A stretch of 26,813 nucleotides of DNA, from the UHGV virus genome UHGV-0083306. One strand, written 5' to 3'. The notes under the pieces are model-generated. The model was not told where the DNA came from. It saw only the letters and a list, made by a program, of their open reading frames with translations, and made no database searches. The DNA comes from a virus. Shown in pieces: positions 6,768 to 19,474 of the stretch (position 1 is the stretch's first letter; the number at the start of each line of letters is the position of its first letter). The translations under genes were made by a program, and so were the position numbers.

Positions 6768-7205
6768 TTATTTCAGGCATTGCGTCCTGATGTACTCCTG
6801 CAGGTAGTTAACCTGCGCGGTTATCCTGTCGATTCCACTTCGTAGACGGTAATAATTGAGTTCAGCATCTGCTGTAAGTCTTGGGCTTTCTCCATCGCCC
6901 ATGCTGCTGGCTCCGGTCGTTGACTTTGCACAGGTGGCGGCGACTTGCATGCGCTTACGACCAGCAGAAACATCAGCACGGAGACTTTCGATAGTCGCGT
7001 TAGCATCAGCAAGCTCCTTTGTATATCTGGCGTCGAGTTCTGCTACATTGCGTTGACGTTTCTGCATGTCAGCGATAATGAATGCGGCCTTATCGCGCTG
7101 TTCTTTATAGGTAATGGCGTTATCACGGTAATGATTAACCGCCCATGACAGGCAGACGATGATGCAGATAACCAGAGCAGAGATAATCGCGGTTACTCTG
7201 CTCAT
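6768..7205 (-). CDS. Rz: Rz i-spanin
   Basis: 145 aa. The N-terminal TM anchor [34 protein letters not shown] equals recalled lambda Rz; the rest diverges and has P22 gp15-like length. ATGA overlap with the R stop. Confidence 0.9.
6821..7012 (-). CDS. Rz1: Rz1 o-spanin lipoprotein, embedded out of frame within Rz
   Basis: Signal peptide with lipobox LVVSAC, followed by a proline-rich mature part ([16 protein letters not shown]), as in lambda Rz1. The exact start Met is uncertain. Confidence 0.8.
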
Positions 7206-7678
7206 ACCTCAATCTCTCTGACCGCTCCGCCAGCCTCTTTGAATTTTGCAATCAGGCTGTCAGCCTTATGCTCGAACTGGCCATAACCAGCACCCGGCAG
7301 TGAAGCCCAGATATTGCTGCAACGGTCGATTGCCTGACGGATATCACCGCGATCAATCATCGGTAAAGCGCCACGCTCTTTAATCTGCTGCAATGCCACA
7401 GCGTCCTGGCTTTTCGGAGAGAAGTCTTTCAGGCCAAGCTGCTTGCGGTAGGCATCCCACCAACGGGAAAGAAGCTGGTAACGTCCGGCGGCTGTTGATT
7501 TGAGTTTGGGGTTTAGCGTGACAAGTTTGCGAGGGTGATCGGAGTAATCAGTGAATAGCTCTCCGCCAACAATGACGTCATAACCATGATTTCTGGTTTT
7601 CTGACGTCCGTTATCAGTTCCCTCTGACCACGCCAGCATATCGAGGAACGCCTTACGTTGATTATTGATTTCCACCAT
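7202..7678 (-). CDS. R: Endolysin, lambda R lytic transglycosylase
   Basis: 158 aa, essentially the recalled lambda R sequence ([39 protein letters not shown]...). Confidence 0.95.
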
Positions 7679-7985
7679 CTTCTACTCCGGCTTTTTTAGC
7701 AGCGAAGCGTTTGATAAGCGAACCTATCGAGTCAGTACCGATGTAGCCGATGAACACGCTCGTTATATAAGCGAGATTGCTACTTAGTCCTGCGAAGTCG
7801 AGAAGGTCACGAATGAACCAGGCGATAATGGCGCACATCGTTGCGTCGATTACTGTTTTTGTAAACGCACCGCCATTATATCTGCCGCGAAGGTACGCCA
7901 TTGCAAACGCAAGGATTGCCCCGATGCCTTGTTCCTTTGCCGCAAGAATGGCGGCTAACAGGTCATGTTTTTCTGGCATCTTCAT
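7662..7985 (-). CDS. S: Holin/antiholin, lambda S
   Basis: 107 aa matching recalled lambda S, including the Met1-Lys2-Met3 dual start (S107/S105). Confidence 0.95.
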
Positions 7986-8580: not shown

Positions 8581-9072
8581 CTATCCCATACTGGAGAATT
8601 CACCATGATATTTTATCCTGGCATTTTCCATTGCCTTTCTAGCCTCCTCGATATCGTCAAAACACCCTACATGAATCCTTTTACCATTGACTCTAATTCT
8701 TCCAACCCACTTGTTTGCAGCAGAATTAAAAGTCACCCCCTTCACACCAGATGAATTGTTTTTCCTCATCTTGCTGTTCCATGAGTTTTGAGTGTTAGTA
8801 ACAACACGAAGATTGGCTATCCGGTTATCAGACCTATCACCATTAATATGGTCAATCACATCGGTTGGCCAATCATTGTAAACCATCAGCCATGCAATTC
8901 TATGGACATATAGCCGCATTCCATAAAGTTTTACCTGCAGATATCCATTGGTTTTATAGCCAACAACAGCGCCATAGATAAATCTAGAGGACCGAGGTGG
9001 ATTCTTCCATGTAAGAATTCCAGTATCTGGATTGTAATTAAAAAGTCTCAATGCATCTTCACGTTTTAACAT
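8581..9072 (-). CDS. HNH homing endonuclease with AP2-like DNA-binding domain
   Basis: 163 aa. HNH_3-type motif HRIAWLMVY..VIDHINGDRSDNRIANLR..TNTQN, then an AP2-like GVKGVTF..KWVGRIRVNGKRIHVGCFDDIEEA. Confidence 0.85.
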   Translation of the reverse strand: MLKREDALRLFNYNPDTGILTWKNPPRSSRFIYGAVVGYKTNGYLQVKLYGMRLYVHRIAWLMVYNDWPTDVIDHINGDRSDNRIANLRVVTNTQNSWNSKMRKNNSSGVKGVTFNSAANKWVGRIRVNGKRIHVGCFDDIEEARKAMENARIKYHGEFSSMG

Positions 9073-16352: not shown

Positions 16353-16491
16353 GACCTTTCTCCTTCTGCATCAGCTTCACTTTTTCCAACTCAGCCCGGA
16401 ATCGACCAGGCTGCTTGAAGCTGGACAGGAAGCGATCACGTAGTATGTGTTTGTGAATTTTGTCCTGGTAAGGACTGAGTGGTTTTGTCAT
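16345..16491 (-). CDS. 48-aa ORF immediately upstream of the initiator gene
   Basis: [53 protein letters not shown] overlap with the 134-aa ORF and an 8-nt overlap with the O-like start. Confidence 0.4.
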
Positions 16492-16895
16492 TAAGCCTCC
16501 TCTACTTCGTAATCAGCGAAGTAACCAGTAGACATTTTTAAAAACCTTGATTCGGTGACTGTGTAAGCCTTCCTTCCTTTCCTCTCCTTGCCTTCAGGCT
16601 CTATGAGGTGGCACGAATAAATGATTCTGCGCTGCCAGTTGCCTGGCATTTCCACCACTGCCAGAACCTCAAGAATTCTCTTTCCTTCAGCATCAGCGGT
16701 GTAAAAACACTGATCACCATAACCACAATCGGCTGGCTCATAATTTTTGTGACAACCGCCAATCCAGCGCTCATCGGTATGCACGTTGCCGTCATAAGAC
16801 TGATAATCTGTGCATACGAAGATAAATGGATATACGGTTTCGAACTTGTCACCGGCCTTTATGCCGGTGTTTACTTGCTTGGTTTGTCCTGGCAT
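16491..16895 (-). CDS. Hypothetical Cys-rich protein (134 aa) between cII and the initiator
   Basis: The track ORF 16491..17102 is trimmed to ATG 16895 (AGGAG 5 nt upstream), because the longer form overlaps cII out of frame. No recognisable domain. Confidence 0.6.
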
Positions 16896-17327: not shown

Positions 17328-17558
17328 TTAAGCAGCCATTAATTCAGGCCAGATGCTTTCCCAATCAACCGGATGAAGGTCTTTGCGAGTCACTTCACCA
17401 TTGCTGAACTTCTCAATCAGAACACAAAGTGCTGCGCCCAATTCATGATTACGGCTAAGTGCTTTCCTCAAATAGCCGATAGAAGTTCCGCACTTGGTGG
17501 CAAATTCTCTCTGCTCTTCCAGTGAAAGGGAGTTCAGATACAAGCGGAGTTCTTCCAT
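17328..17558 (-). CDS. cro: Cro-like HTH repressor (first gene of pR)
   Basis: 76 aa with an HTH (FATKCGTSIGYLRKALS). GGAAGGAG lies upstream, and the gene is divergent from cI. Called Cro by position; it is not the lambda or P22 Cro sequence. Confidence 0.75.
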   Translation of the reverse strand: MEELRLYLNSLSLEEQREFATKCGTSIGYLRKALSRNHELGAALCVLIEKFSNGEVTRKDLHPVDWESIWPELMAA

Positions 17559-17590: not shown

Positions 17591-17660
17591 AGTTTACCTG
17601 CAGGTAAAAAACAAATCAATACCCACAGGTTATTTACCGATAGGTAATCAAAGATAGAAT
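17591..17660. promoter_or_regulatory. OR operators with divergent pR and pRM
   Basis: Operators: TTACCTGCAGGTAA (17594..17607, perfect palindrome), ATACCCACAGGTTA (17619..32) and TTACCGATAGGTAA (17634..47). pR on the minus strand is TTGATT (17619..14), 17 nt, TAAACT (17596..91). pRM on the + strand is TTTACC (17633..38), 16 nt, TAGAAT (17655..60). Confidence 0.75.
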
Positions 17661-17666
17661 TAAATC

Positions 17667-18353
17667 ATGGATAAATACGAACAAAGACGACTAAGGCTGA
17701 TAGAGATAAGAGACCGATTCTGTAATGGAAAGGCCTCAGAGTTGGCTCGTCGAATAGAAAGGGAACCATCATACGTTTCCAGAATGCTGTATCCGGAAGG
17801 AAAAAGCGGAAAAAAACGCATTGCTGACGATATGATGGAACTAATTGAAAAATCTTTTAATCTCCCACGCGGATGGATGGACATGCTTGCAGATAGCAAA
17901 GTTGGATCTGCAGACCATCTTGAGTTTGCGGGTAACGTTCGTGCGGGTTTTGTTCCGGTAATTGGTGAAGCCGTTTTGGGAGTTGATGGCTCAGTGGATA
18001 TGATTGAATTCAGATCCGGTTGGTTAAGCATCTACAGTGGCGATAAAGATGCTTACGGTCTGAAGGTTAAGGGTGACAGCATGTGGCCAAGGATTCAGTC
18101 AGGAGAATATGTTGTTATTGAACCAAATACGCCAGTACATCCAGGTGATGAAGTCTTTGTAAGGACCAAAGATGGTCATAACATGATAAAGATCATGAAC
18201 AAAACAAGAGACGGAGACTATCAGTTTAGTAGTATAAACAGCGATCACCGTCCAATCACTCTTCCTGTTGAAGAAGTTGATAAAATGCATTTTGTTTCAG
18301 CTATTGTGAAACACACTAGGTACGTAGACCAGGACGATCTGCCAAAATTTTGA
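17667..18353 (+). CDS. cI: CI repressor (HTH + S24/LexA-type autopeptidase)
   Basis: 228 aa. N-terminal HTH; C-terminal GDSMWP (Ser) and MIKIM (Lys); candidate Ala-Gly cleavage site VRA/GF. The pRM -10 ends 6 nt before the ATG, implying a leaderless mRNA as in lambda. Confidence 0.9.
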   Translation: MDKYEQRRLRLIEIRDRFCNGKASELARRIEREPSYVSRMLYPEGKSGKKRIADDMMELIEKSFNLPRGWMDMLADSKVGSADHLEFAGNVRAGFVPVIGEAVLGVDGSVDMIEFRSGWLSIYSGDKDAYGLKVKGDSMWPRIQSGEYVVIEPNTPVHPGDEVFVRTKDGHNMIKIMNKTRDGDYQFSSINSDHRPITLPVEEVDKMHFVSAIVKHTRYVDQDDLPKF

Positions 18354-18367
18354 GGATAAAGCAGCAA

Positions 18368-18664
18368 ATGTTTATACCAGGTATAGTGGTCGCTGTTGTA
18401 ATCATCTGCTTCATATGGGCAAAGTTATCTCCTGTAAGCTCTAAGCATACAGCTGAACTCATGAAGAAGAAGCATCTTATACATGAGGCAGAAACGATAA
18501 TTAAGAAGTTCAAAGGCATGTCATATGACGACATGTCATCAGATCAGATTGCTATGTATAAATGCGCCATTGAGCGTCTTGACTACTTAAACGGACTCAA
18601 ACCCAAACACACCCCGGTAGAATCAAAATTGCCGCAATGGCCAAGCAATCCAAATAGCTTCTGA
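18368..18664 (+). CDS. Small single-pass membrane protein co-transcribed with cI (rexAB position)
   Basis: 98 aa from ATG 18368 (the track starts at an upstream TTG). N-terminal TM segment FIPGIVVAVVIICFIWA, then a charged soluble domain. It lies 14 nt after the cI stop and a terminator follows directly. Confidence 0.65.
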   Translation: MFIPGIVVAVVIICFIWAKLSPVSSKHTAELMKKKHLIHEAETIIKKFKGMSYDDMSSDQIAMYKCAIERLDYLNGLKPKHTPVESKLPQWPSNPNSF

Positions 18665-18676
18665 CATCTCCTTTCA

Positions 18677-18698
18677 GCCCGCAAAGCGGGCTTTTTTA
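18677..18698 (+). terminator. Intrinsic terminator ending the cI operon
   Basis: GCCCGC-AAA-GCGGGC followed by TTTTTTAT. Confidence 0.8.
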
Positions 18699-18717: not shown

Positions 18718-18802
18718 TTACCTGAAAATTCAAACAGGTAAACTCTCACACCAATTTTATTTACCTGCAGGTATAGACAACAGTTTTACCTGTAGGTATA
18801 TT
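18718..18802 (+). promoter_or_regulatory. OL operators and pL
   Basis: Operators TTACCTGCAGGTAT (18761..74) and TTACCTGTAGGTAT (18786..99), plus the split site TTACCTG-N10-CAGGTAA (18718..41). pL is TAGACA (18774..79), 17 nt, TATATT (18797..802). Confidence 0.7.
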
Positions 18803-18842
18803 TTAAGCCATCAGCAGGACGCACTAACCACCATGAAGGTGA

Positions 18843-18873
18843 GGCTCTTAAAAATTTAGCCCTGAAGAAGGGC
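18843..18873 (+). promoter_or_regulatory. nutL (boxA-like GGCTCTTAA, boxB GCCCTGAAGAAGGGC)
   Basis: boxB at 18859..18873 is identical to recalled lambda nutL. boxA has G for C at its first position. Confidence 0.85.
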
Positions 18874-19141
18874 AGCATTCAAAGCAGAAGGCTTTGGGGT
18901 GTGGTGAAGCCAGCTAGTCACTGGCAAGTGCTTACCTACTGTTGAGCGGTGAAGCGCTCCCAACGCTAGCAATAGCGTGGACGAGATGGGGAGCCGCGGG
19001 CGATAAGGCCGCCATAACGCGCACGTTGTCGCATGGAAAAATCACTGGGGTGCCGGTTATACCCCTCCGAATGAGACTCAACAAGCTGGAGCTAGACTAC
19101 CAGCCACCACACCACCAAAGCTAACTGACAGGAGAATCCAG

Positions 19142-19474
19142 ATGGATGCACAAACACGCCGCCGCGAACGTCGCGCAGAGAAACAGGCTCAATGGAAAGC
19201 AGCAAATCCCCTGTTAGTTGGGGTAAGCGCCAAGCCAGACACCCGCAAAATTCTCTCGCTGACTCGAAAGCCTAAATCACGCGTAGAAAGCGCTCTGAAC
19301 CCGATTGATTTAACGGTGCTGGCTGAGTATCGGGAAGAGATGGAAAAACGCGCTGAAGCTGTTGAGCGCAAGAATCATCGCACATGGTACAGCAAGCCAC
19401 GCAGTGAAATGGGGGTGACTTGTGTTGGTCGCCAGAAAATGAAATTAGGCAGTAAGCTACTGTATGAGGGGTGA
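19142..19474 (+). CDS. N: Antiterminator N (lambda type, divergent C-terminus)
   Basis: 110 aa. The first ~33 aa equal recalled lambda N, including the arginine-rich motif MDAQTRRRERRAEKQAQWKAAN. SD GGAG upstream, as in lambda. Confidence 0.92.
   Translation: MDAQTRRRERRAEKQAQWKAANPLLVGVSAKPDTRKILSLTRKPKSRVESALNPIDLTVLAEYREEMEKRAEAVERKNHRTWYSKPRSEMGVTCVGRQKMKLGSKLLYEG

What the first reader, a model, noticed from the sequence alone, without database searches (positions are those of the whole stretch)
18368..18698. Uncharacterised single-pass membrane protein co-transcribed with the repressor (rexAB slot)
SEEN: a 98-aa ORF starts 14 nt after the cI stop with no intervening terminator. It is followed at once by a strong terminator (18677..18698) and then by OL/pL. 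The protein has one N-terminal TM segment (FIPGIVVAVVIICFIWA) and a charged ~75-aa domain. I recognise no family.

KNOWN: genes in this position are expressed from pRM/pRE in lysogens and are typically exclusion or abortive-infection functions, such as lambda rexAB.

INFERENCE: this is a candidate lysogen-expressed superinfection-exclusion or defence factor of unknown mechanism.
Basis: partly seen in the sequence, partly recalled or inferred. Interest (0 to 1): 0.55.

Follow-up and report, generated by a model that had tools for sequence, protein, structure and literature searches.

The report
Uncharacterised prophage membrane protein after cI
A real but uncharacterised 98-residue membrane protein is encoded right behind the prophage repressor, and its relatives sit where phage P22 keeps its DNA-entry blocker sieA, so it is a good untested candidate for a new phage-exclusion protein.

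Summary
A 98-codon ORF (18368..18664, +) starts 14 nt after the cI stop and ends 11 nt before a strong intrinsic terminator, followed by OL/pL, nutL and N.

It is a genuine gene in a small, unannotated family, PHROG 10450. It has no Pfam, NCBIfam, PADLOC or PDB match and no specific fold match.

New findings:
- The family occurs in two prophage slots. One is directly after a conserved S24 cI. The other is the sieA position of P22-like phages that lack sieA, next to and convergent with ejection gene 16.
- The ORF is linked to its cI allele in 52 of 52 complete E. coli genomes. It rides in both P22-like and lambda-like prophages.
- It is a divergent island. cI proteins are 82-87% identical across modules and the ORF 40-52%. 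Nonsynonymous divergence (dN) is about five times higher. A few residues are invariant.
- All 11 members compared have one TM at the extreme N-terminus, no K/R before it and K/R after it. This predicts N-out/C-in with a cytoplasmic helical hairpin.

It is homologous to neither RexAB nor P22 SieA. The best reading is an exclusion or defence protein acting at the cytoplasmic face of the inner membrane. The function is inferred and untested.

The parts
17594..17647 (.). OR operator cluster (TTACCTGCAGGTAA-type palindromes) between cro and cI
   Evidence: Pattern matches at 17594 (0 mismatches) and 17634 (3 mismatches). The window has 5 matches against 0.97 expected. Sequence read.
17633..17660 (+). 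pRM-like promoter (TTTACC, 16 nt, TAGAAT). It ends 6 nt before the cI ATG, so the cI mRNA would be leaderless or nearly so.
   Evidence: Consensus scan. The number of hits is not above the shuffle expectation, so this is consistent with a promoter but not proven. The layout is analogous to the annotated P22 pRM/c2 region.
17667..18353 (+). cI repressor, 228 aa, HTH plus S24 autopeptidase; mEp043 immunity type
   Evidence: Peptidase_S24 at 1.4e-17. phrog_4 transcriptional repressor. 98% identical to mEp043 cI.
18352..18367 (+). Spacer with a GAGGA Shine-Dalgarno that overlaps the cI stop; no terminator
   Evidence: Sequence read. In related modules the spacer is 3, 4 or 39 nt.
18368..18664 (+). 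The ORF: 98-aa bitopic membrane protein of PHROG 10450
   Evidence: The start is fixed by the conserved M/V-(Y/F/W)-I-(P/S) N-terminus of homologs and by GTG at the same codon in mEp043 and in the common E. coli allele.
18371..18421 (+). Codons 2-18: the single N-terminal transmembrane helix
   Evidence: Kyte-Doolittle score 2.84. Helical in both AlphaFold2 models.
18422..18661 (+). Codons 19-98: predicted cytoplasmic domain. One helix continues from the TM to about residue 47, a second spans 58-76, and a tail carries the conserved WP. Conserved residues are H27, K34, I38, E40, A41, M56, C66, A67, R70, L71, L74, W91 and P92.
   Evidence: AlphaFold2 with an alignment: mean pLDDT 78, and 84-91 over residues 31-80. 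Invariant columns. Charge distribution.
18676..18698 (+). Intrinsic terminator of the cI-ORF transcript (equivalent of timm)
   Evidence: Identical in mEp043. A different strong terminator sits at the same place in L015.
18718..18802 (.). OL/pL region: a wide inverted repeat TTACCTG-N10-CAGGTAA (18718-18741), operators at 18761-18774 and 18786-18799, and a pL-like promoter at 18774-18802
   Evidence: This block is 70-85% identical across divergent modules, while the ORF is 35-57%.
18844..18873 (+). nutL: boxA-like GCTCTTAAAAA and boxB GCCCTGAAGAAGGGC
   Evidence: Sequence read. The hairpin was picked up. Identity to the lambda nutL boxB is from my own knowledge. N carries the lambda N36 peptide domain, 9.4e-23.
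19142..19474 (+). Antiterminator N
   Evidence: PF11438 N36. phrog_271.

Best explanation
The ORF encodes a small bitopic inner-membrane protein. It is made in lysogens as the second cistron of the repressor transcript (pRM/pRE to cI to ORF to terminator).

Its N-terminal helix anchors it with only 1-4 residues exposed to the periplasm. A roughly 75-residue helical-hairpin domain faces the cytoplasm.

I propose that it is a superinfection-exclusion protein acting at the cytoplasmic face of the inner membrane. It would bind the incoming DNA-delivery machinery of a superinfecting phage, such as the gp16/gp20-type conduit of P22-like phages, or a host inner-membrane factor that this machinery needs. 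Genome entry would stop, as with P22 SieA, but through an unrelated protein.

Shown here:
- The gene is real.
- Its family, its two genomic slots and its strict linkage to cI.
- Its fast divergence around a fixed core.
- One TM at the extreme N-terminus.

Inferred:
- Co-transcription with cI.
- N-out/C-in topology.
- A role in exclusion.
- The entry step as the target.

My graded confidence is:
- Prophage-expressed membrane protein: about 0.85.
- Any anti-phage role: about 0.6.
- An entry block specifically: about 0.35-0.4.
For: 1. Operon structure. The spacer after cI is 14 nt with no terminator, and a strong terminator follows the ORF. In related modules the spacer is only 3-4 nt, which leaves no room for a separate promoter.

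2. Linkage. The cI allele and the ORF each occur in 52 of 5426 complete E. coli genomes. Their coordinates abut in every record that appears in both listings. They sit in P22-like prophages and in lambda-like siphoviral ones.

3. A second slot.
- Homologs at 31-38% identity lie next to and convergent with ejection gene 16. That is the sieA position of P22.
- In phage N7 and locus L005 the homolog is the last gene after mnt.
- In L004 it follows a 98% identical copy of P22 orf59a and its terminator.
- None of the slot neighbours tested in these loci is SieA. The 41 phage records with SieA do not include N7, HZ41 or mEp043.
- Leavitt et al. report that only 22 of 66 P22-like phages have sieA (PMC10883804).

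4. Arms-race-like evolution.
- cI proteins are 82-87% identical, the ORF 40-52%.
- Nucleotide identity falls from 70-88% in cro/cI to 35-57% in the ORF, then rises to 70-85% in OL/pL.
- dN is 0.43-0.64 for the ORF against 0.09-0.13 for cI.
- H27, E40, A41, M56, C66, A67, L71, W91 and P92 stay fixed or nearly fixed.

5. Topology. In all 11 members compared there is no K/R before the TM and 1-4 K/R in the next 15 residues. Conservation lies in the soluble domain, not in the TM.

6. Independence from the repressor type. Phage N7 uses a C2-type repressor that is unrelated outside the S24 core.

7. The cI-N slot is a published defence hotspot.
Against: - There is no functional or expression data of any kind.
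- There is no homology to any characterised exclusion or defence protein.
- Both slots also carry unrelated cargo, so position does not specify mechanism. Examples are a lipoprotein, ClpP-like and Panacea-domain genes, and a HigB-like cassette.
- With almost nothing in the periplasm, the protein cannot reach the periplasmic parts of an injection conduit.
- The common allele has a GTG start and a distant Shine-Dalgarno, and PGAP usually does not call it. Expression may therefore be low.
- The topology rests only on the positive-inside rule.
- Fast divergence could reflect relaxed constraint rather than conflict.
Confidence: 0.4

Rival explanations
1. Abortive-infection protein, closer to Rex. 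The cytoplasmic hairpin senses a phage product. The single-pass helices then oligomerise and depolarise or permeabilise the membrane, killing the infected cell before progeny are made.
For: - It sits in the same slot as rexAB and bstA, both abortive-infection systems.
- The N-terminal TM plus charged C-domain resembles the general shape of holins.
- The rapidly evolving soluble domain would suit a sensor.
- In L005 the neighbouring gene is weakly holin-like, phrog_689 at 5e-6.
Against: - A single short TM with unconserved sequence is a weak pore former.
- No PADLOC model matched at E <= 1, and no holin family matched among the PHROG hits at E <= 0.05.
- Constitutive expression from the repressor promoter of a self-sufficient membrane toxin would need tight control, and no partner gene accompanies the cI-linked form.
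- The sieA-slot location next to the ejection genes fits an entry block better.
Confidence: 0.2
2. A non-defence accessory gene. A small membrane protein could modulate a host inner-membrane protein such as a transporter, FtsH/HflKC or a Sec/YidC-associated factor. It could also tune prophage stability or induction, with any effect on other phages being incidental.
For: - Lysogen-expressed slots also hold conversion genes unrelated to defence.
- Many bacterial small single-pass proteins regulate membrane proteins (own knowledge: MgrB, AcrZ, SgrT, DicB).
- The ORF is linked to cI in 52 of 52 genomes and follows a related cI in all four divergent modules.
Against: - The family also occurs in phages with an unrelated C2-type repressor and far from it, which argues against a repressor-specific role.
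- dN about five times that of cI is unusual for a protein that binds a conserved host target.
- The family is confined to lambdoid prophages of Enterobacteriaceae, in slots known for exclusion genes.
Confidence: 0.2
3. Opposite topology. The N-terminal segment acts as an uncleaved signal anchor, a signal-anchor-release (SAR) domain or a cleaved signal peptide. The helical domain then works in the periplasm, like T4 Sp/Imm or the RI antiholin, for example against a tail lysozyme or the periplasmic conduit protein gp20.
For: - The N-terminal hydrophobic segment starts at residue 2.
- IWA|K at residues 16-19 could be read as a weak signal-peptidase site (sequence).
- T4 Sp and RI are also about 97-aa proteins with an N-terminal hydrophobic segment and a helical periplasmic domain (own knowledge).
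Against: - No member has a positively charged n-region, and all have K/R immediately after the segment.
- The AxA-like site is not conserved.
- The soluble domain has a single invariant cysteine and no conserved partner, which is typical of a cytoplasmic protein.
Confidence: 0.1
4. Not a functional gene: a chance or decaying ORF in the spacer between cI and its terminator.
For: - PGAP leaves it unannotated in most of the 52 genomes.
- The common allele starts with GTG.
Against: - It matches the PHROG profile over its full length.
- Homologs at 30-46% identity keep the length, the TM and invariant residues, and occur in two unrelated genomic contexts.
- The ORF is intact in every copy examined, with mostly synonymous changes and dN/dS of 0.16.
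Confidence: 0.02

Closest known systems
P22 SieA (PHROG 7745; types A-C of Leavitt et al. 2024, PMC10883804)
   Same: - Prophage-expressed inner-membrane protein of lambdoid phages.
- Relatives of the window protein occupy exactly the sieA position, convergent with ejection gene 16 and downstream of mnt/orf59a.
- In both, the conserved sequence lies on the predicted cytoplasmic side (for SieA; here).
   Different: - No sequence relationship: hhalign probability 0.9%.
- 98 aa with one TM, against 162-164 aa with three predicted TMs.
- The SieA motif FxRYPxEAxxFNK is not seen in the family alignment.
- The window copy sits in the cI operon, not between genes 16 and 9.
Lambda RexA/RexB
   Same: Same slot, between cI and OL/pL. 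Same presumed transcription with cI, followed by a terminator. A membrane component is involved (own knowledge of the lambda map).
   Different: One small gene instead of two. RexB is a multi-pass membrane protein and RexA a 279-aa cytoplasmic protein (own knowledge). No hit to any Rex family in Pfam, PADLOC or PHROG.
BstA of Salmonella prophage BTP1
   Same: Encoded directly downstream of the prophage repressor, presumably sharing its promoter, with its own terminator. Found in a P22-like prophage.
   Different: The paper describes BstA as localising to sites of phage DNA replication (abstract), and it carries an internal anti-BstA DNA element. The window protein is a 98-aa membrane protein with no sequence match.
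Small membrane-anchored DNA-entry blockers of other temperate phages (HK97 gp15; lactococcal Sie2009 next to the repressor; T4 Imm and Sp)
   Same: Proteins of roughly 80-170 aa with an N-terminal hydrophobic anchor. They are expressed from the resident phage and stop genome entry. Sie2009 also lies in the lysogeny module next to the repressor (own knowledge).
   Different: No sequence similarity was detected to any annotated PHROG, Pfam or PADLOC family. For several of these proteins the functional domain is thought to face the periplasm or cell exterior, whereas this family is predicted to face the cytoplasm. These comparisons rest partly on memory; I did not align those proteins directly.
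Host YajC (single-pass inner-membrane protein required for P22 DNA injection)
   Same: About 100-110 aa, with one TM near the N-terminus and a cytoplasmic C-domain (own knowledge). YajC is essential for P22 injection, and the SieA paper discusses it as a possible contact of the conduit.
   Different: No member hit Pfam YajC. The predicted domain is an alpha-helical hairpin. Any decoy or competitor role is pure speculation.

Membership tests
PHROG 10450 (unknown function) | Significant full-length match to the family profile | tested here: met
   E = 1e-55, residues 1-98 on profile positions 1-98 of 98. All 12 sequences of alignment A1 match. Phage N7 ORF14 in the sieA slot also matches, 3.2e-52.
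Lambda RexAB | Two-gene cassette (RexA sensor plus multi-pass RexB) with sequence similarity to either protein | tested here: not met
   A single 98-aa gene lies between cI and the terminator. It has one hydrophobic segment. No Rex hit in Pfam, PHROG or PADLOC.
Lambda RexAB | Position between cI and OL/pL, transcribed with cI | tested here: met
   The position is met. Co-transcription is inferred from the 14-nt spacer and the downstream terminator, and was not measured.
P22 SieA (types A-C) | Sequence homology to SieA / PHROG 7745 | tested here: not met
   hhalign of the family profile against P22 SieA gives probability 0.9%. The window protein hits phrog_10450, while P22 SieA hits phrog_7745. 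Types B and C were not compared directly.
P22 SieA (types A-C) | Three or four predicted TM helices in a protein of about 160-200 aa | tested here: not met
   One TM in 97-114 aa across the 11 members compared.
P22 SieA (types A-C) | Conserved cytoplasmic motif FxRYPxEAxxFNK | tested here: not met
   The motif is not seen in the family alignment by inspection. It is described.
P22 SieA (types A-C) | Located between genes 16 and 9 of a P22-like prophage | tested here: inconclusive
   Met by one subfamily (L002, L004, L005, phage N7). Not met by the window gene itself, which is in the cI operon.
P22 SieA (types A-C) | Blocks DNA injection of P22-like phages; escape mutations map to genes 16 and 20 | not testable with these tools
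   This needs plating, K+ efflux and escape-mutant experiments.
BstA | Similarity to the BstA protein family, and a defence-system model hit | tested here: not met
   No PADLOC hit at E <= 1. No relevant Pfam hit. Only the position after the repressor is shared.
Holins / antiholins | Located in the lysis cassette with the endolysin and spanin, and a match to a holin family | tested here: not met
   The window's own lysis cassette lies elsewhere: ORFs at 6768-7985 on the minus strand, which resemble in size and order the holin-lysozyme-lysis protein genes annotated in the related K56-43-un prophage. No holin PHROG or Pfam hit for the ORF.
YajC (PF02699) | Match to the YajC profile | tested here: not met
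   No member of A1 hits PF02699 at E <= 0.5.

The most novel reading that the evidence does not exclude
PHROG 10450 could be a second, structurally unrelated class of DNA-injection blocker that works from the cytoplasmic face of the inner membrane. It might cap the exit of the gp16/gp20 conduit. It might instead compete with or sequester a host single-pass factor such as YajC.

This would explain how some of the P22-like phages that lack sieA exclude their relatives. It would also explain why the same gene has been captured into the repressor operon of both lambda-like and P22-like prophages.
Probability: 0.2. Interest if true: 0.7.

Novelty: new variant of a known kind. Interest (0 to 1): 0.5.

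Why it matters
If the protein excludes phages, it would be a new, very small tool for studying how tailed-phage DNA crosses the inner membrane. That step is still poorly understood even for P22 and lambda.

- Its predicted cytoplasmic orientation would point to a vulnerable cytoplasmic-face step of genome delivery.
- The exact window protein is recorded on 339 public contigs, and one allele of the sieA-slot subfamily on at least 999. These come from E. coli, Salmonella and Citrobacter, among them clinical isolates.
- It could therefore influence prophage competition and phage-therapy host range.
- Standard annotation usually misses the gene.

If it is not a defence gene, it is simply one more small prophage membrane protein of unknown role.

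Tried and rejected
- **Family searches.** Pfam, NCBIfam and PADLOC gave only chance-level hits. The weak PHROG hits (phrog_1077 'transcriptional regulator' at E = 0.003, phrog_10423, phrog_30710) were matched by only 2 of 12 family members, so I treat them as noise.
- **Homolog searches.** An exhaustive HMMER scan of 1.84 billion representatives found only 10 relatives. Two profile searches of 5.8 billion proteins found 21 and 24 clusters. Every source name is 'hypothetical protein' or the generic 'Phage protein'.
- **Structure.**
  - A profile search of PDB sequences found nothing at E <= 10.
  - Foldseek against PDB and BFVD gave nothing below E = 0.9.
  - The AFDB50 library was unavailable.
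- **Locus scans.** I took contexts from the look-up of encoding contigs instead.
- **SieA homology.** Tested and rejected.
- **The upstream TTG start (18350, used in the mEp043 record).** Rejected. Homologs begin at the MFIP/MYIP position, and in L015 and L016 the cI stop lies 3-4 nt upstream.
- **A repressor co-factor role.** Judged unlikely, because phage N7 carries the family with an unrelated C2 repressor.
- **RNA families.** Rfam found nothing in the window.
- **Literature.** Nothing on the protein's accessions or its PHROG. Nothing about this gene in the papers that mention mEp043. The HK97 gp15 paper is not held in the library.

Full report
**1. The observation**

The window carries a lambdoid immunity region with its leftward strand on the + strand.
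- cro is at 17328..17558 on the minus strand.
- OR operators lie at 17594-17647.
- cI is at 17667..18353.
- The ORF in question is at 18368..18664.
- A hairpin plus T-run terminator lies at 18676..18698.
- OL/pL, a lambda-type nutL and N (19142..19474) follow.

The ORF's ATG is 14 nt after the cI stop codon, so no terminator can fit between them. The terminator after the ORF folds at -12.6 kcal/mol, z = -3.0 against shuffles.

**2. It is a real gene in a small unannotated family**

It matches PHROG 10450 (unknown function) end to end, E = 1e-55. Nothing else matched:
- Pfam, NCBIfam and PADLOC.
- PDB sequences.
- Rfam.

An exhaustive HMMER scan of 1.84 billion cluster representatives found only 10 relatives. 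Profile searches of 5.8 billion proteins found 21-24 clusters. All come from Enterobacteriaceae, and none carries a functional name.

Members at 30-46% identity keep the length (97-114 aa) and the N-terminal TM. They also keep a fixed set of residues, in window numbering:
- The M-(Y/F/W)-I-(P/S) N-terminus.
- H27.
- L-I-x-E-A at 37-41.
- S-W-x-E-M around 52-56.
- Y-x-C-A-x-x-R-L at 63-71.
- L74.
- W-P at 91-92.

This conservation fixes the start at 18368, not at the upstream TTG used in the mEp043 record. In mEp043 and in the common E. coli allele the same codon is GTG.

The common allele differs from the window ORF by six synonymous and two conservative changes (T43S, D59E) plus the start-codon change. 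dN/dS between the window and mEp043 is 0.16.

**3. Where the cassette lives**

The immunity region is that of phage mEp043, 97% identical at the nucleotide level. mEp043 is a lambda-like siphovirus with a cor gene.

The window phage itself is P22-like, judged by its scaffold, portal and terminase. So are the prophages with this cassette in strains K56-43-un and PA45B. In strain ECONIH4 the identical cassette sits in a lambda-like prophage.

In complete E. coli genomes the cI allele and the ORF each occur in 52 of 5426 genomes. Their coordinates abut in every record that appears in both listings. PGAP annotates the ORF in only a few of these genomes.

**4. The key new finding: two slots**

*(a) cI-linked members.* Three further immunity modules carry a full-length family member 3-39 nt after a related cI. 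They come from Cronobacter and E. coli genomes and from metagenomes (loci L011, L015, L016). In L011 the gene caller had picked an internal start.

*(b) sieA-slot members.* Other members lie in P22-like phages next to and convergent with ejection gene 16.
- In phage N7 (MH717096) and locus L005 the gene is the last one after mnt.
- In L004 it follows a 98% identical copy of P22 orf59a and its terminator, with its own strong Shine-Dalgarno and a GTG start.
- This is the position of sieA in P22.
- None of the slot neighbours I tested in N7, L005, L004 and L002 is SieA.
- None of the 41 phage records with SieA is N7, HZ41 or mEp043.
- Leavitt et al. found sieA in only 22 of 66 P22-like phages.

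The family is not homologous to SieA: hhalign probability is 0.9%. SieA is 162-164 aa with three predicted TM helices.

Both slots are transcribed in lysogens in the model phages. That shared property is the common denominator, not the type of repressor. Phage N7 has a C2-type repressor unrelated to the window's cI outside the S24 core, with nothing between c2 and N.

**5. Evolutionary signature**

Across the four divergent cI-linked modules:
- cI proteins are 82-87% identical, but the ORF is only 40-52% identical.
- A sliding nucleotide comparison shows cro/cI at 70-88%, a drop to 35-57% across the ORF, and recovery to 70-85% in OL/pL.
- With dS saturated for both genes, dN is 0.43-0.64 for the ORF against 0.09-0.13 for cI.

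The gene is therefore a fast-evolving island inside a conserved module, yet it retains an invariant core. This fits a protein in conflict with changing partners. Relaxed constraint on surface positions cannot be excluded.

**6. Structure and topology**

AlphaFold2 with a 12-sequence alignment gives mean pLDDT 78, with 84-91 over residues 31-80. It predicts a long helix from residue 5 to 47 (the TM continuing into the soluble part), a loop, a second helix at 58-76, and a tail that carries the WP motif.

In the 11 members compared there is no K/R before the TM and 1-4 K/R in the following 15 residues. By the positive-inside rule, the N-terminus (1-4 residues) faces the periplasm and the hairpin faces the cytoplasm. 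Conservation is in the soluble domain and the extreme N-terminus, not in the TM. The topology is inferred, not shown.

**7. Mechanism**

The best-supported reading is a lysogen-expressed inner-membrane protein that protects the lysogen against other phages.

Three features favour a block of genome entry at the cytoplasmic face:
- Its membrane anchor.
- Its cytoplasmic, fast-evolving binding surface.
- The placement of one subfamily beside the ejection-protein genes.

The target could be the conduit formed by gp16/gp20-type proteins. It could also be a host inner-membrane factor that the conduit needs. The SieA paper names YajC as such a candidate for P22.

I give about 0.35-0.4 to this specific mechanism and about 0.6 to any anti-phage role. 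The rivals are:
- A Rex-like abortive-infection device (0.2).
- A non-defence modulator of a host membrane protein or of lysogeny (0.2).
- The opposite topology, with a periplasmic Sp/Imm-like action (0.1).
- A non-functional ORF (0.02), which the conservation data effectively exclude.

The main caution is that both slots also carry unrelated cargo. Examples are a lipoprotein, a ClpP-like protein, a Panacea-domain protein and a HigB-like cassette.

**8. Comparison with known systems, and novelty**

The protein occupies the rexAB/bstA slot, and its relatives occupy the sieA slot. It fails every sequence and architecture test for those families (see the membership table). It is a member only of PHROG 10450, which has no known function.

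No paper in the searchable library mentions its accessions or its PHROG. I rate it a new variant of a known kind: a non-homologous small membrane protein in the niche of prophage exclusion and defence genes.

Interest is moderate (0.5). The candidate is well defined, cheap to test and widespread in clinical Enterobacteriaceae, but its function is wholly inferred.

Noticed in passing
window 18368-18664; E. coli hits H4-H33: NCBI's PGAP annotation leaves this conserved ORF unannotated in most of the 52 complete E. coli genomes that carry it. In the rows listed, only 2 of 30 show a feature under the match. The common allele starts with GTG. Gene callers elsewhere picked internal or upstream starts, giving products of 63, 69 and 104-178 aa.
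   Followed up: partly
window 16491-16895 (-): An extra gene of about 134 aa (phrog_30464, unknown function) sits between cII and the small ORF before the O-like replication gene. mEp043 has nothing there. In L011 and L015 the same position holds a T5orf172/MUG113-domain gene. This looks like a second variable cargo slot in the immunity region.
   Followed up: partly
window 18718-18741: A wide inverted repeat, TTACCTG-N10-CAGGTAA, lies just after the terminator. Its half-sites are the operator half-sites but are spaced 10 bp apart. It is kept in L011 and L016 (half-sites unchanged, spacer varying) and partly in L015. It could be an unusual OL3 or a site for another factor.
   Followed up: no
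window 18803-19141: The leader between pL and N is unusually long, about 340 nt. It includes a lambda-identical nutL boxB and is nearly identical to the mEp043 leader, but unrelated in the other three immunity modules. Rfam finds nothing there.
   Followed up: no
L004 3821-4186 (-): In one P22-like prophage the sieA-slot homolog is divergently paired, about 30 nt start to start, with a 121-aa ORF. Read from the DNA by eye, that ORF contains an HExxH (HECAH) metalloprotease-like motif.
   Followed up: no
L005 2196-2886; L007 4080-4920: In the mnt operons of L005 and phage N7 the homolog is preceded by a phrog_4293 gene. Next comes either a weakly holin-like small protein (phrog_6324; phrog_689 at 5e-6) or a 169-aa phrog_24865 protein. 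These could be partners in the sieA-slot subfamily and are absent from the cI-linked form.
   Followed up: partly
L009 10397-10882; L021 8320-10544: P22-like prophages that carry the cI-linked ORF fill their own sieA slot with other cargo. K56-43-un has a lipoprotein with an LLAGC lipobox (phrog_6067). PA45B has a ClpP-like gene after mnt, a Panacea-domain gene and a 122-aa protein.
   Followed up: partly
window 8931-8944: An operator-like sequence, TTACCTGCAGATAT (2 mismatches to the operator consensus), lies far from the immunity region, near the Q / late-promoter area. It may be chance.
   Followed up: no
window 17667-18353 (3' end of cI): A 2026 paper reports an sRNA (svsR) encoded at the 3' end of the cI gene of the lambdoid prophage NC-SV, which limits infection by virulent coliphages (PMC12803456). 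I did not test whether this window's cI is related to the NC-SV cI or carries such an RNA.
   Followed up: no
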